From the IMG/VR virus record IMGVR_UViG_2939521961_000011: a stretch of DNA of 64,000 nucleotides, one strand, 5' to 3'. Below the pieces are notes generated by a model. That model had not been told where the DNA came from and searched no databases. It worked only from the letters and a program-made list of their open reading frames with translations. Source of the stretch: a virus. Taxonomy: Duplodnaviria > Heunggongvirae > Uroviricota > Caudoviricetes. The position numbers and the translations under genes are program-made. Shown piece by piece: positions 1,706-4,303 of this stretch (position 1 is its first letter; every line of letters starts with the position of its first letter).

Positions 1706-1915
1706 TTACTCCCCCCAGACAAAATCATCACTTCCTGTTCGATGCGAGCCATAGTGAACCTCGTACTTATCTCCCATCTTTCTTGCTTCCGTTTCTGCGT
1801 CTTCCTCTGTCGCAAAAACCCCAACAAGATGCCAGGGCGAGCTTCTTACCACAGCCCAACCTTTAACCCATCCTTTGTTGTCCTTATCTTCCATTAACAC
1901 TTCAGAAACAAACAT
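1706..1915 (-). CDS. hypothetical 69-aa protein, late-region cargo
   Basis: Strong RBS AAGGAGATAAAT before ATG; lies downstream of the IS-truncated ORF in the position stx occupies in Stx phages. Confidence 0.45.
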   Translation of the reverse strand: MFVSEVLMEDKDNKGWVKGWAVVRSSPWHLVGVFATEEDAETEARKMGDKYEVHYGSHRTGSDDFVWGE

Positions 1916-2043
1916 ATTTATCTCCTTGTGGGTACCCAGAGATATTTTATGATTGCTCCCGGTCAGATCAATAAAGTGGCTTCAATTTTGCCTTAATGAT
2001 TGAGGTGTACTGGCAATAGCGGACACTACCATTTGTTCTTTTT

Positions 2044-2862
2044 TTAAGCAGCCATCTGATGATATTTTTCCCTGAAGGCTGCCGGGGAGATATTCCCCAG
2101 ACGAGAGTGACGACGCTGACGATTGTAGAAAATCTCAATGTATTCCCGTATTACTGAGATGGCTTCATCCCGGTTATTAAAACGATAGTGGCTCAGGCTC
2201 TCATTTTTCAGCGTTCCCCAGAAGCTTTCCATCGGAGCGTTGTCGTAACAGTTACCTTTACGCGACATTGATGTTTTCAGACCAAACTGCTCCTGTATGA
2301 CCCGGTAATCGTATGCGCAGTACTGTGAACCTCGATCAGAGTGGTGGATTAGCCCGGCAGGTGGGCGCTGGCTCCTGAGCGCCATAAACAGAGCTTTACC
2401 TGTCAGCTCTTTTGTCATGCGCTCTCCCATGGCGTAGCCGACAATTTCGCACGTATAAACATCTTTGATGCCAGCGAGGTACAACCATCCCTCCTGTGTG
2501 GCAACATACGTCAGGTCCGCCACCCAGACCTGATTTGGTGCTGTAGGAGCGAACGTCTGGTTCAGCAGATTTGGCGCAACTGGCAGATTGTGGTTCGAGT
2601 TCGTAGTCGCTCTGAACTTGCGTTTCTGCTTACAGCGTAGCCTTAGCTCCTTACGAAGACGTGCCAGTCGGTCACGACCAACGATGATGCCATTCTCTGC
2701 CAGCTCCGTCTGGAGCCGCCGGGTTCCATATGTTTCGCGAGTGCGGATATGTGCCACCTTAATCTCCAGTTTTAGCCGCTCATCACTTTGTTTTCTGTCT
2801 GAGGGTTCATGCTGTACCCAGTTGTAATAACCGCTCCTGGATACACCAAATACCTGACACAT
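2044..2862 (-). CDS. IS3-family transposase OrfB (DDE catalytic domain)
   Basis: 272-aa ORF with DDE-integrase-like motifs (HSDRGSQY...YDNA), directly downstream of orfA in the -1 frame. Confidence 0.85.
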   Translation of the reverse strand: MCQVFGVSRSGYYNWVQHEPSDRKQSDERLKLEIKVAHIRTRETYGTRRLQTELAENGIIVGRDRLARLRKELRLRCKQKRKFRATTNSNHNLPVAPNLLNQTFAPTAPNQVWVADLTYVATQEGWLYLAGIKDVYTCEIVGYAMGERMTKELTGKALFMALRSQRPPAGLIHHSDRGSQYCAYDYRVIQEQFGLKTSMSRKGNCYDNAPMESFWGTLKNESLSHYRFNNRDEAISVIREYIEIFYNRQRRHSRLGNISPAAFREKYHQMAA

Positions 2863-2897
2863 CGCTTCAATGGGAAATTGTTGTCGCCATTGTTCGA

Positions 2898-3200
2898 TTA
2901 ACGCGTATTTTTCAGCGACTCCTGTGCAAAATACGCTGTTGCTTTTTTTAATATATCTCGCTCAAGGCGAGCTTCATTTAACGCCTTACGCAGTTGCAGA
3001 ATTTCAGATTCCAGTTCAGCCACCGTGCGGGAACCAGGAGTACCGAGCCCTTTTCTGGCGGCGGTAACCCATTGTCCTAAAGTGCCTTCAGGAAGAGATA
3101 ATCGGGAAGCGCCTTCACTGATCGAAAGTTGATTTTCAAGAACCGTTCTGACAGCTTCGGCTTTGAACTCTTTAGAGTAACGTTGGGTTTTTCTGCTCAT
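2898..3200 (-). CDS. IS3-family transposase OrfA (HTH)
   Basis: 100-aa ORF with HTH and leucine-zipper-like C-terminus typical of IS3 OrfA. Confidence 0.85.
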   Translation of the reverse strand: MSRKTQRYSKEFKAEAVRTVLENQLSISEGASRLSLPEGTLGQWVTAARKGLGTPGSRTVAELESEILQLRKALNEARLERDILKKATAYFAQESLKNTR

Positions 3201-3261
3201 TATTAGCTCCTTCTGATGCCATTCTATTTCAGGAAGGAGTGTCCGTTAAACTCAGGCTACC

Positions 3262-3459
3262 TCAGATCAAATCAGGGTGATTGACGGAATCGTACACCAC
3301 CTCAATATTTTCATCCGTGGCGTCGATAAGATATTCTTTTACATAAGGACCTGTTGATTTTCCATGAAATACATCTTCAACAAGTACACTCTCCCCCTGA
3401 ACAACACGAAAACTAACTTCTGTTTCGAACGGACCAATCGTCACCATCAGTTTTTTCAC
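3262..3459 (-). pseudogene. small ORF whose last ~9 codons are replaced by the IS end
   Basis: Stop codon TGA is supplied by the IS terminus; removing the IS and one TSD copy restores a ~74-aa ORF reading into 1997-1970. Confidence 0.45.
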
Positions 3460-3549
3460 ATAGCCTCCTGATAAGCACTCGATTTATTAGTTAATGGTGT
3501 AACGCAGATACAAAAAAAGGCCCGCAAAAGCGAGCCAAGTAAATAAATA

Positions 3550-3626
3550 TGGCGCGTTGTACTGGATTCGAACCAGTGACCGATTGCTTAGAAGGCAATT
3601 GCTCTGTCCGACTGAGCTAACAACGC
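3550..3626 (-). tRNA. tRNA-Arg, anticodon TCT
   Basis: Hand-folded cloverleaf: 7-bp acceptor stem, GCTC/GAGC D-stem, TTCGAAT T-loop, CCA end; anticodon loop CTTCTAA. Confidence 0.8.
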
Positions 3627-3639
3627 ATGATGCTGATAA

Positions 3640-3716
3640 TGGACCGCCATCGGGAACTTGAACCCCGCACAGCCAGCTTCGAAGGCTGACGCTCTATCCC
3701 GATGAGCTAATGGCGG
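3640..3716 (-). tRNA. tRNA-Arg, anticodon TCG (assignment tentative)
   Basis: Cloverleaf with CCGCCAT/ATGGCGG acceptor stem, GGTTCAAGT T-loop, CCA end; anticodon read as TCG by hand. Confidence 0.65.
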
Positions 3717-3723
3717 TATGTGA

Positions 3724-3799
3724 TGGTGGCCCTTGCTGGATTTGAACCAGCGACCTGGCGATTATGAGTCGCTCGCTCTCACCACTGAGCTAAAGGGCC
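3724..3799 (-). tRNA. tRNA with CAT anticodon (Ile2/lysidine type or Met; ileZ-like)
   Basis: Cloverleaf GGCCCTT/AAGGGCC acceptor stem, anticodon loop CTCATAA; order matches the ileZ-argN-argO cluster downstream of Q in Stx-type phages. Confidence 0.75.
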
Positions 3800-3960
3800 G
3801 GGCGCAGGATAATAACGGTACGTAACTAATTCTGCAATATCATCCGTTCTGACTGACTACATTCTGAACTTCCCTGACCGTCTGCTCAAAACGCCCGCTC
3901 TCCAGCTCAACGCCAATTGCACGACGCCCCAGCGCCATTGCTGCTTTGACGCTACGGACA

Positions 3961-3990
3961 TAAAAAAGCCAGCCACTGGGGGAGGCTGGC
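3961..3990 (-). terminator. intrinsic terminator candidate in late leader
   Basis: GCCAGCC...GGCTGGC hairpin followed by U-run on the minus strand. Confidence 0.5.
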
Positions 3991-4170
3991 GAAACTCGTA
4001 GAGCAAAAGTGTTGTTACACTAACTTCGTCACAGGGTTATCCTGCAATACTCAAAATACACAATATTTACAAAACTAATAGTATACAAGGCGATCTTTAA
4101 GATTTTGTTATTAATTGTGGTCGCACCTTCCTTTCTGTGTACTTTCCGTATAGCTCACAGGATTCTGGGT

Positions 4171-4198
4171 ACAAAAAAACCCGCGCATCGGCGGGTTC
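4171..4198 (-). terminator. tR'-like terminator downstream of Q (late promoter pR' expected in 4200-4303)
   Basis: AACCCGC...GCGGGTT hairpin plus T7 on the minus strand, ~100 nt after Q stop. Confidence 0.6.
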
Positions 4199-4303
4199 TT
4201 AAATCTTATCAACGGTAGACATACAAAGCCCATCATTGGGAAAATCTTATCCATATTTTTTGAAAAATGCAAGCATCATGTCGTCATCTTCGGCGAAAAC
4301 CAT

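What the first reader, a model, noticed from the sequence alone, without database searches (positions are those of the whole stretch)
1706..4200. Stx-equivalent slot holds tRNAs, a small two-gene operon and a fresh IS600-like insertion
Downstream of Q and tR', where Stx phages carry ileZ-argN-argO and stxAB, prophage 1 has three tRNAs (CAT, TCG, TCT anticodons) followed by two small genes instead of a toxin. The first is cut 9 codons short by an IS3-family element with an intact 3-bp target duplication (GAT), which indicates a recent transposition. No stx is present. The small genes are candidates for unknown late-expressed cargo.
Basis: partly seen in the sequence, partly recalled or inferred. 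Interest (0 to 1): 0.4.

Follow-up and report, generated by a model that had tools for sequence, protein, structure and literature searches.

The report
IS600-interrupted cargo pair, stx-less prophage
In a Shiga-toxin-phage-like prophage that lacks the toxin, the toxin's place is taken by small accessory genes of unknown function, one of which has just been clipped by a jumping gene (IS600); this is an ordinary locus, with two modest leads: the gene pair is hit repeatedly by insertion sequences, and one of its proteins shares a domain with bacterial immune proteins.

Summary
On the minus strand the order is Q, tR' and a second terminator, a methylase remnant, tRNA-Ile2(CAU)/Arg(UCG)/Arg(UCU), a terminator, orf74, IS600, orf69 and a terminator. 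TerB, DUF3927 and nanS-p follow. The stretch from tR' to the post-argO terminator is 94.7% identical to phage 933W. Homology resumes upstream of nanS-p, so orf74-orf69-TerB-DUF3927 (1330 bp) sits exactly where 933W carries stxA2B2 (1371 bp). No stx is present. IS600 is 1264 bp with a GAT duplication. It truncates orf74 after codon 65 of 74, removing its last predicted beta-strand. The empty site is identical in O26:H11 11368, and this exact junction occurs in none of 5,426 complete E. coli genomes.

New findings:
- orf74-orf69 is a conserved, mobile gene pair in E. coli, Salmonella and Xenorhabdus prophages. It always lies beside the lysis cassette and is under purifying selection.
- Other STEC genomes carry identical IS600 copies at three other sites within the same 236 bp, and two IS629-type junctions also fall there.
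- The orf69 domain also occurs fused to TIR, trypsin-like and Mrr effector domains in defence islands.

The function of the pair remains unknown. Overall this is an ordinary locus with two modest leads.

The parts
4304..5056 (-). Antiterminator Q (QuuQ/ydfT type, 250 aa, WP_001047111.1)
   Evidence: ORF list. RefSeq annotation of identical loci.
4173..4195 (-). tR' intrinsic terminator, identical to the first terminator annotated in 933W
   Evidence: Mapped from the 933W annotation. Hairpin of -13.6 kcal/mol followed by a T-run.
3962..3990 (-). Second intrinsic terminator upstream of the tRNA genes
   Evidence: Identical to the 933W annotated terminator. Folds at -14.7 kcal/mol.
3840..3953 (-). 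Remnant of a DNA methyltransferase gene (pseudogene)
   Evidence: RefSeq annotation of identical loci, converted to window coordinates.
3809..3837 (-). pT, putative tRNA promoter (one mismatch to the 933W element)
   Evidence: Mapped from the 933W annotation.
3724..3799 (-). tRNA with CAU anticodon (ileZ type, tRNA-Ile2)
   Evidence: ARAGORN, Rfam, RefSeq tRNA-Ile annotation, alignment to 933W ileZ.
3640..3716 (-). tRNA-Arg(UCG), argN
3550..3626 (-). tRNA-Arg(UCU), argO
3512..3536 (-). Terminator after argO. In 933W stxA2 starts 54 bp beyond it. Homology to 933W ends at window 3503.
3262..3459 (-). orf74, truncated. It has a GTG start with an AGGAGG Shine-Dalgarno, 65 native codons, then TGA from the IS terminus.
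   Evidence: PHROG 2571, E = 1.9e-26.
3265..3267 (.). Target-site duplication GAT (copy 1)
2001..3264 (-). IS600, 1264 bp. orfA is 2898-3200 and orfB is 2044-2862. An A7G slippery run lies at 2942-2949.
1998..2000 (.). Target-site duplication GAT (copy 2)
1968..2000 (-). Displaced 3' end of orf74. It runs from the duplicated Ile65 codon (GAT on the plus strand) through codons 66-74 (IKAKLKPLY) to the stop.
   Evidence: Reconstruction. Matches the intact gene in O26:H11 11368.
1706..1915 (-). orf69 (69 aa, WP_000498121.1), intact, with an AAGGAG Shine-Dalgarno
   Evidence: PHROG 4280, E = 6e-41. Family of 289 cluster representatives.
1653..1673 (-). Intrinsic terminator closing the orf74-orf69 module
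   Evidence: -12.7 kcal/mol followed by a T-run.
1085..1516 (-). TerB-family protein (143 aa), third gene of the slot
   Evidence: Pfam TerB, E = 1.7e-16. PHROG 632.
921..1088 (-). DUF3927 small membrane protein (55 aa), fourth gene of the slot
   Evidence: Pfam DUF3927, E = 4e-17. PHROG 1470, 'TciB-like'.
1..606 (-). 5' part of nanS-p (DUF1737/SASA esterase), the right-hand anchor shared with 933W L0105. It carries a private nonsense codon at 346-348.

Best explanation
This is the late-operon cargo slot of an stx-negative, Stx-phage-like lambdoid prophage. It is the same prophage found in O26:H11 str. 11368 and about 40 other STEC genomes.

Shown:
- The regulatory backbone is shared with 933W: tR', a second terminator, pT, ileZ-argN-argO and a third terminator.
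- Where 933W has stxA2B2, this phage carries two small two-gene modules, orf74-orf69 and TerB-DUF3927. nanS-p and the lysis genes follow.
- orf74-orf69 is a self-contained, mobile accessory ('moron') cassette. It has low GC, ends in its own terminator, and keeps the same gene order in different positions in other phages.
- IS600 inserted at codon 65 of orf74 and duplicated GAT. This removes the last predicted beta-strand of the small beta-sandwich, including near-invariant Ala68 and Leu70. orf74 is therefore probably inactive.
- orf69 is intact but now lies 1.27 kb further from pR'.
- The insertion is private to this genome.

Inferred:
- The transposition used the IS3-family copy-out/paste-in mechanism.
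- The cassette is transcribed by Q-antiterminated read-through from pR' on induction.
- Because these lineages carry the IS-excision enhancer, the insertion may be reversible.
- The pair most likely acts in phage-host or phage-phage conflict (defence, anti-defence or immunity) rather than in virulence or virion assembly.
- The cassette is a regional hot spot for IS3-family insertion.
For: Backbone and slot: 94.7% identity to 933W over window 4198-3503, with the three terminators identical or differing by one T and pT differing at one base. Homology resumes at window 905-780 and in nanS-p. There is no stx.

IS: the length, IRs, TSD and transposase family all fit IS600, and copies elsewhere are identical. 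The empty site is identical. The junction is absent from 5,426 genomes.

Real genes:
- Both have strong Shine-Dalgarno sequences.
- dN/dS is 0.08-0.36 wherever it can be computed.
- AF2 models reach pLDDT 89 and 90.
- 102 homologues of orf74 were found.
- 289 cluster representatives of orf69 were found.

Mobile pair: an orf74 homologue sits directly upstream of the orf69 homologue in each of these.
- Phage mEp237, after Rz.
- A Salmonella prophage, in the order Q-HicAB-pair-holin.
- A Xenorhabdus prophage, before the holin.
- Two metagenomic phage contigs.

The cassette is 42.8% GC against 50% for the surrounding region. Terminators flank it.

Conflict link: the orf69 domain is the C-terminal domain of proteins carrying TIR_2, Trypsin_2, Mrr_cat or Imm53. 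These proteins lie in defence islands: directly after hsdRMS, next to Mrr/AAA_13, and near ThsB-TIR. Acb2/Tad1-hairpin genes lie near the pair in two phages.

Hot spot: identical IS600 copies sit at empty-site coordinates 1850-52, 1870-72 and 2083-85 in other genomes. IS629-type ends sit at 1913 and 1961. Four of five IS600 events fall within 236 bp of the 7.7 kb surveyed, simulated p = 5e-4.
Against: - No function is demonstrated for either protein.
- Neither matches a Pfam, NCBIfam or PADLOC family above threshold.
- No PDB relatives were found by sequence.
- Expression is inferred from position only.
- pR' for this Q type was not located, and the one promoter-like site inside the cassette is no better than chance.
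- Fusions make up only about 15% of the listed orf69-family representatives, and a few may be gene-calling artefacts (P0166 is one candidate).
- The hot-spot statistic is post hoc. The survey of opposite-orientation and IS629-type events outside the cassette is incomplete.
- IS3-family elements are generally enriched in STEC prophages (PMC3271280).
Confidence: 0.8

Rival explanations
1. orf74-orf69 is a type II toxin-antitoxin module that stabilises the prophage, like the RelE/ParE-HTH and hok/sok modules a few kb away.
For: The two genes are small (74 and 69 aa), adjacent, co-oriented and conserved as a pair. The prophage is rich in TA modules. The Salmonella version sits next to HicAB and ParDE.
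Against: There is no hit to any toxin or antitoxin family in Pfam, NCBIfam or PADLOC. Neither model shows an RHH, HTH or other DNA-binding antitoxin fold. Natural IS knock-outs of either gene alone are tolerated, in orf74 and in orf69, although polarity weakens this argument. The genes are 52 nt apart rather than overlapping. orf74 paralogues occur alone after Rz in Stx phages, and orf69 homologues occur without orf74 in Pseudomonas phages.
Confidence: 0.08
2. The pair is a lysis-associated accessory, for example modulating lysis timing or the spanin/endolysin step, rather than a conflict factor. Its genomic home is always the lysis cassette.
For: In every context examined the pair or the orf74 paralogue abuts lysis genes. 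It lies immediately after Rz, overlapping the Rz stop in Stx2 phage EH1846, in mEp237 and L016, and immediately before the holin in Salmonella and Xenorhabdus.
Against: The flanks of the lysis cassette are the standard moron slots of lambdoid phages; stx, nanS-p, bor and Acb2-like genes sit there too, so position is weak evidence. In the window the pair is separated from the holin by TerB, DUF3927 and nanS-p. Neither protein has a signal peptide or transmembrane segment (sequence). The orf69 domain fusions to TIR, protease and Mrr are unrelated to lysis.
Confidence: 0.1
3. The cluster of IS insertions reflects selection to inactivate a costly cassette or its downstream genes, rather than a target-site or regional preference of IS3-family transposases.
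For: Six independent IS3-family junctions lie within 236 bp. They hit both genes and the intergenic region, in both orientations, with no shared target sequence. Repeated IS600 hits in a single gene (iee) of unknown significance are reported in O121:H19 (PMC9397093).
Against: 93 of the 110 genomes with the cassette keep it intact and nearly identical. dN/dS below 1 indicates long-term maintenance. The low GC (39-46%) fits a regional preference. IS629 shows regional rather than sequence-specific preference (PMC3271280). The data cannot separate the two causes.
Confidence: 0.3

Closest known systems
stx locus of Stx2 phage 933W (pR'-tR'-ileZ-argN-argO-terminator-stxA2B2-L0105/nanS-p-S-R)
   Same: The terminators, tRNA promoter and three tRNA genes match at 94.7% nucleotide identity, and nanS-p is the same downstream anchor. 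The cargo occupies the same interval and is nearly the same length, 1330 versus 1371 bp.
   Different: There is no stx. The cargo is orf74-orf69-TerB-DUF3927. Q is the QuuQ/ydfT type and pR' is not homologous. The methylase gene is only a remnant.
Phage mEp237 genes 060/061, and the equivalent pairs in Salmonella and Xenorhabdus prophages
   Same: These are homologous two-gene modules with the same order and close spacing. Identity is 39% and 65% to mEp237, and 95% and 93% to the Salmonella pair.
   Different: The pair lies after Rz rather than between Q and nanS-p, or directly before the holin. Both genes are annotated only as hypothetical, and none is interrupted.
IS600 insertions in STEC, such as lacZ and iee of O121:H19 (PMC9397093), and IS629 in O157 prophages (PMC3271280)
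   Same: The element is an IS3-family IS amplified in STEC, with a 3-bp TSD. It inactivates a gene and can potentially be excised by IEE. Several independent hits in one short target were also seen in iee.
   Different: The target here is a prophage cargo cassette of unknown function. No phenotype is known. The window's insertion site is not present in any of 5,426 complete genomes.
Small phage anti-defence proteins and morons, such as Acb2/Tad1-type sponges and lambda bor/lom
   Same: These are small late-region accessory genes beside the lysis cassette that move between phages. Acb2/Tad1-hairpin genes lie within 1-3 kb of the pair in two phages.
   Different: There is no sequence or fold similarity to any known anti-defence protein. 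No activity has been shown.

Membership tests
IS600 (IS3 family) | Length about 1.26 kb with imperfect terminal inverted repeats starting TG | tested here: met
   The element is 1264 bp. Its ends are TGAGGTGTACTGG...GGACAC and TGAGGTAGCCTGAG...GGACAC.
IS600 (IS3 family) | Two overlapping ORFs (orfA, orfB) with a slippery A-run, and a DDE/rve transposase | tested here: met
   orfA is 100 aa and orfB is 272 aa. NCBIfam transpos_IS3 hits at E = 7e-100. An A7G run lies at 2942-2949. RefSeq marks identical copies 'programmed frameshift'.
IS600 (IS3 family) | 3-bp target-site duplication and a matching empty site | tested here: met
   GAT flanks the element on both sides. The empty site in O26:H11 11368 is identical.
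IS600 (IS3 family) | At least 95% nucleotide identity to the ISfinder IS600 reference | not testable with these tools
   ISfinder was not available. As a proxy, the element is 100% identical to copies that PGAP names 'IS3-like element IS600 family' on EHEC chromosomes and plasmids, and 140 Shigella plasmids match.
Stx-converting phage (stx locus) | Late regulatory backbone: tR', tRNA genes ileZ-argN-argO and a terminator, with nanS-p downstream | tested here: met
   94.7% identity to 933W, with each annotated element mapped.
Stx-converting phage (stx locus) | stxA and stxB genes present | tested here: not met
   tblastn with Stx2 A and B gives a best E-value of 0.98. The prophage is a relative, not a member.
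Moron (autonomous accessory cassette of lambdoid phages) | Present or absent, or differently placed, among related phages | tested here: met
   stxAB occupies the same interval in 933W. The pair is placed after Rz or before the holin in other phages. It occurs in only 110 of 5,426 E. coli genomes.
Moron (autonomous accessory cassette of lambdoid phages) | Own terminator and deviant base composition | tested here: met
   A terminator lies at 1653-1673. GC is 42.8% against 50% for the region.
Moron (autonomous accessory cassette of lambdoid phages) | Own promoter active in the lysogen | tested here: inconclusive
   There is one 9/12 sigma-70-like site on the minus strand (first hexamer starts at 1971, second ends at 1944), between the two genes. 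The number of such sites in the region is no higher than in shuffles. No expression data were available.
Type II toxin-antitoxin module | Recognisable toxin and antitoxin domains (for example RelE/ParE/HicA with RHH/HTH/HicB) | tested here: not met
   No hits in Pfam, NCBIfam or PADLOC. The predicted folds are a beta-sandwich and a beta-beta-alpha-beta unit with no DNA-binding fold.
Type II toxin-antitoxin module | Toxicity of one partner, neutralised by the other | not testable with these tools
   This needs expression experiments. Natural IS knock-outs of either gene exist.
PHROG 2571 / PHROG 4280 (uncharacterised phage protein families) | Significant match to the family profile | tested here: met
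   orf74 hits phrog_2571 at E = 1.9e-26, covering profile positions 100-171 of 291. orf69 hits phrog_4280 at E = 6.1e-41 over its full length.
Known anti-phage defence or anti-defence proteins | Match to a PADLOC model or to the fold of a solved anti-defence protein | tested here: not met

The most novel reading that the evidence does not exclude
orf69 (PHROG 4280) may be the free-standing phage version of a previously undescribed sensor or regulatory domain. Bacteria fuse this domain to TIR, trypsin-like protease and Mrr-nuclease effectors in defence islands. On this reading the phage copy, working with its beta-sandwich partner orf74, acts as a decoy, inhibitor or ligand sponge against those defences, or alternatively as a minimal prophage-encoded exclusion system. 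The recurrent IS3-family knock-outs in STEC would then reflect a cost of carrying it, and could be reversed by IEE-mediated excision.
Probability: 0.15. Interest if true: 0.65.

Novelty: new member of a known kind. Interest (0 to 1): 0.3.

Why it matters
The finding as written is routine: an stx-negative relative of Stx phages with hypothetical cargo genes and a young IS600 copy, in a locus already present in dozens of RefSeq genomes.

It matters modestly in three ways.
- It documents by direct homology that the stx slot is a general cargo site, here filled with two small modules of nearly the same length as stxAB.
- It identifies a conserved, mobile two-gene module whose second protein shares a domain with TIR, protease and nuclease defence-island proteins. 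That makes the module a cheap candidate for anti-defence or defence screening.
- It shows a 236-bp stretch hit at least six times independently by IS3-family elements. This could serve as a natural target for studying IS600/IS629 site choice, or as a typing marker in O26, O145 and related STEC.

Tried and rejected
- Pfam, NCBIfam and PADLOC scans of both small proteins found nothing above threshold. The weak hits for orf69 (DUF7336 at E = 0.005, SPOR at E = 0.23) were not pursued as assignments.
- Foldseek against BFVD for orf74 found nothing at E <= 1e-3.
- The afdb50 library was unavailable.
- Profile searches of PDB sequences found nothing.
- I tested whether the gene upstream of the Pseudomonas-phage orf69 homologue is a remote orf74 relative. 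hhalign gave a probability of 0.6%, so this was rejected.
- The 68-aa gene downstream of the Mrr-orf69 fusion shows no evident similarity to orf74.
- Literature searches for DUF7336 and tciA/tciB found nothing relevant. A search for descriptions of this slot did not lead to one; the papers it listed were not read.
- The combined-orientation IS629 query was confounded by genomes with two nearby IS629 copies. It showed only that no further IS629 insertion with both flanks intact lies in 1600-4300.
- The first apparent 100% matches (08_3323, 2013C-3513, CFSAN027346) turned out not to be the same insertion. They are different sites whose BLAST pieces had been joined.
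Full report
**1. Observation**

All features of the finding are on the minus strand, and all are confirmed.

ARAGORN finds exactly three tRNA genes in the 64-kb window, and Rfam confirms them:

| anticodon | coordinates |
|---|---|
| cat | 3724-3799 |
| tcg | 3640-3716 |
| tct | 3550-3626 |

An IS3-family element occupies 2001-3264.
- It is 1264 bp long, with imperfect inverted repeats TGAGGT...GGACAC.
- GAT is present at 1998-2000 and again at 3265-3267.
- Its two ORFs (2898-3200 and 2044-2862) match NCBIfam transpos_IS3 at E = 7e-100.
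- An A7G slippery run lies at 2942-2949.
- Identical copies elsewhere are annotated as IS600-family transposases with a programmed frameshift.

Removing 2001-3267 restores a 74-codon ORF, which I call orf74. The window copy keeps 65 codons and then reads the TGA of the IS end. The second small gene, orf69, is intact at 1706-1915.

The reconstructed empty site differs from E. coli O26:H11 str. 11368 at one position in 9,033, and that position lies outside the finding. In that genome the two genes are annotated as hypothetical proteins WP_000735807.1 and WP_000498121.1.

**2. Is this the stx slot?**

Yes, by homology and not only by gene order.

Window 4198-3503 aligns to phage 933W at 94.7% identity. 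The alignment runs from the first terminator after pR' through to the terminator that lies 54 bp upstream of stxA2.

The 933W elements map as follows:

| element | window coordinates | match to 933W |
|---|---|---|
| tR' | 4173-4195 | identical |
| second terminator | 3962-3990 | identical |
| pT promoter | 3809-3837 | one mismatch |
| post-argO terminator | 3512-3536 | one extra T |

Homology resumes at 933W 7067-7202, which matches window 905-780. Rfam calls this region STnc100. It then continues into nanS-p.

Between these anchors 933W has 1371 bp carrying stxA2B2. The window, without the IS, has 1330 bp carrying orf74, orf69, a TerB-family gene (1085-1516) and a DUF3927 gene (921-1088). 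The slot therefore holds four genes in two two-gene modules.

Q is the QuuQ/ydfT type and is not homologous to 933W Q, so pR' could not be mapped. No stx-like sequence exists anywhere in the window.

**3. Age of the insertion**

Four observations point to a very recent event.
- The IS copy is 100% identical over 1264 bp to copies in other genomes and on EHEC plasmids.
- The TSD is intact.
- The empty site is identical.
- A 120-nt probe across the left junction finds no single-piece match in 5,426 complete E. coli genomes.

The three genomes that first looked like full matches in fact carry IS600 at other positions.

STEC lineages carry the IS-excision enhancer, which excises IS3-family elements including IS600 (PMC9397093). 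The insertion may therefore be reversible. This is an inference; iee was not looked for.

**4. A cluster of independent insertions**

Coordinates below are empty-site coordinates.

| coordinates | TSD or junction | element | target | genomes |
|---|---|---|---|---|
| 1998-2000 | GAT | IS600 | orf74 codon 65 | this window |
| 2083-2085 | CCT | IS600 | orf74 codons 36-37 | 08_3323, CFSAN027346 |
| 1870-1872 | ATC | IS600 | orf69 codons 15-16 | 2013C-3513 |
| 1850-1852 | CAC | IS600, opposite orientation | orf69 codon 22 | 7_26_9A |
| 1913 | IS end abuts cassette | IS629-type | orf69 start codon; upstream side deleted | at least six O145 genomes |
| 1961 | IS end abuts cassette | IS629-type | intergenic | 2013C-3492 |

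The cassette occurs in 110 of 5,426 genomes, and 93 of these have it intact.

In the 9-kb region shared by 44 genomes I found only one further IS600 event, in UTAK-15. Just outside that region, 6629 and 2014C-3057 carry an IS600 between nanS-p and the holin. Two more IS629-type events lie elsewhere in the region.

Simulated probabilities under uniform placement:
- Four of four IS600 sites within 236 bp of the 1,434 bp surveyed in both orientations: p = 0.016.
- Four of five within 236 bp of 7.7 kb: p = 5e-4.

These figures are post hoc. The survey of opposite-orientation events outside the cassette is incomplete. IS3-family elements are in any case concentrated in STEC prophages, and multiple IS600 hits in one gene have been reported for iee (PMC3271280, PMC9397093).

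The cassette is 42.8% GC (orf74 alone 39%) against 50% for the surrounding region. The four target sites share no obvious motif. I cannot separate a regional target preference from selection for inactivation.

**5. The two small proteins**

Both are real genes.
- Both have strong Shine-Dalgarno sequences.
- dN/dS is 0.08-0.36 wherever synonymous sites are not saturated.
- Both give confident AF2 models.

*orf74*
- It belongs to PHROG 2571, E = 1.9e-26.
- A profile search found 102 homologues, all named hypothetical where a name is given, in E. coli, Salmonella, Citrobacter, Leclercia and Yokenella.
- The model is a six-strand all-beta sandwich, pLDDT 89.
- BFVD and PDB sequence searches give nothing.
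- The segment lost in the window is the last strand (residues 66-72). It includes Ala68 and Leu70, which are conserved in at least 90% of 54 sequences. The truncated protein is therefore probably misfolded (inference).
- Paralogues at about 41% identity sit alone directly after Rz in many Stx1, Stx2a and Stx2c phages.

*orf69*
- It belongs to PHROG 4280, E = 6e-41.
- The model is a beta-beta-alpha-beta unit, pLDDT 90, but only two of the five models are confident.
- An exhaustive profile search finds 289 cluster representatives.
- The conserved core is GWGV.R..PWH..G.F...A...G..Y.V.YG....G.DDF.
- Homologues occur in mEp237 and in Pseudomonas phages.

**6. The pair is a mobile module**

An orf74 homologue (34-95% identity) sits directly upstream of the orf69 homologue in each of these contexts:
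- Phage mEp237, after Rz.
- A Salmonella prophage, in the order Q-HicAB-pair-holin.
- A Xenorhabdus prophage, before the holin.
- Two metagenomic phage contigs.

In the window the pair is bracketed by intrinsic terminators at 3512-3536 and 1653-1673. In Pseudomonas phages the upstream gene is unrelated.

**7. A functional lead**

About 15% of the listed orf69-family representatives are longer than 150 aa. Most of those carry the domain at the C-terminus. I scanned 20 of the 22 against Pfam. The partner domains found are listed here:

| partner domain | number of proteins |
|---|---|
| TIR_2 | 2 |
| Trypsin_2 | 5-6 |
| Mrr_cat | 1 |
| Imm53 | 1 |

Three fusion proteins whose genomic contexts could be read lie in defence islands:
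- The trypsin fusion follows hsdR-hsdM-hsdS directly.
- The TIR fusion lies beside an Mrr/NA-iREase gene and an AAA_13 gene.
- The Mrr fusion lies a few genes from a ThsB-type TIR gene.

Genes with the Acb2/Tad1 hairpin domain lie 1-3 kb from the pair in two phages.

This places the orf69 domain in biological-conflict systems. It does not say whether the phage copy defends, counter-defends or does something else.

**8. Best explanation and rivals**

*Best supported.* This is a cargo (moron) cassette in the stx-equivalent slot of an stx-negative lambdoid prophage. It is transcribed by Q-dependent read-through (inferred). Its first gene has been freshly disrupted by IS600. The site is one that IS3-family elements hit repeatedly. 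I commit to a conflict-related role for the pair as the most likely function, with low confidence in the specific mechanism.

*Rivals.*
- A toxin-antitoxin pair. There is no family match and no DNA-binding fold, and either gene can be knocked out in nature.
- A lysis accessory. The only evidence is positional.
- For the IS cluster, selection for inactivation versus target preference. This is unresolved.

**9. Novelty**

The architecture, the IS and the genes are all already present in public genomes. The finding itself is ordinary. What this analysis adds is:
- the pair's conservation and mobility;
- the insertion cluster;
- the domain fusions.

These are leads, not discoveries.

Noticed in passing
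window 346-348 (base 347): nanS-p (DUF1737/SASA esterase) has a nonsense codon after residue 86. The window has T where O26:H11 11368 and strain 08_3323 have G (Ser to stop). The prophage's sialate O-acetylesterase gene is therefore probably inactive in this strain.
   Followed up: partly
empty-site coordinates 1850-2085 (window 1850-2000 and 3268-3352); loci L002, L006, L007, L008, L012, L013: At least six independent IS3-family junctions fall within 236 bp of the orf74-orf69 cassette in different STEC genomes: four IS600 sites and two IS629-type ends. All IS600 copies are identical.
   Followed up: yes
proteins P0134, P0144, P0168, P0170, P0195, P0202, P0234, P0262, P0266; loci L024, L025, L028: The orf69 domain occurs as the C-terminal domain of TIR_2, Trypsin_2, Mrr_cat and Imm53 proteins. 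The fusion proteins whose contexts could be read lie in defence islands, one of them directly after an hsdRMS operon.
   Followed up: partly
window 744-913 (-): There is a full-length match to the Rfam sRNA family STnc100 (102 bits, E = 5e-22) between DUF3927 and nanS-p. The region is also weakly conserved downstream of stxB2 in 933W.
   Followed up: no
window 921-1516 (-): A TerB-family gene and a DUF3927 membrane-protein gene overlap by 4 bp and form the second module of the slot. PHROGs labels them 'tellurite resistance' and 'TciB-like inhibition of cell division or resistance to colicin'. A TerB-like gene also lies near the pair in metagenomic contig L015.
   Followed up: no
window 6895-7576 (+), 7679-7834 (-) and 7829-8003 (-): A RelE/ParE-family toxin gene with an HTH partner lies upstream of Q, as does a hokD gene with a sok RNA match (117 bits). 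The early-right region is dense in toxin-antitoxin modules, as in the Qin prophage.
   Followed up: no
window 8712-8909 (-): Rfam matches to C4 antisense RNA (69 bits), isrK (51 bits) and, below its gathering score, c4-a1b1 (27 bits; gathering 46.7) lie next to an ORF6N-domain gene. This resembles a P1/P7-type antirepressor control unit.
   Followed up: no
L003 5001-5225; L010 3001-3225; about 28 Stx phage records: orf74 paralogues of 74 aa (about 41% identity) sit directly after Rz, overlapping its stop, in Stx1a, Stx2a and Stx2c phages. Several records leave them unannotated.
   Followed up: partly
L009 2701-3297 (phage YDC107_1, Ravinvirus): Here the orf74 domain is the middle part of an annotated 198-aa protein with a roughly 100-aa helical-looking N-terminal extension. 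This explains why PHROG 2571 is 291 positions long. It could be a true fusion or an over-extended gene call.
   Followed up: no
L014 6891-7133; L015 5385-5678: Genes with the Acb2/Tad1 hairpin domain (anti-CBASS/anti-Thoeris sponge family) lie 1-3 kb from the orf74-orf69 pair in a Xenorhabdus prophage and in a metagenomic phage contig.
   Followed up: no
L007 4729-5942 (CFSAN027346), L021 5288-6444 (UTAK-15), L022 7288-8501 (O103:H2 129), L023 44-1200 (6629): Other strains carry further IS600 or IS629-type insertions in the same prophage. They lie between Q and the methylase remnant, in a small hypothetical gene upstream of RelE, in the ORF6N gene, and between nanS-p and the holin.
   Followed up: partly
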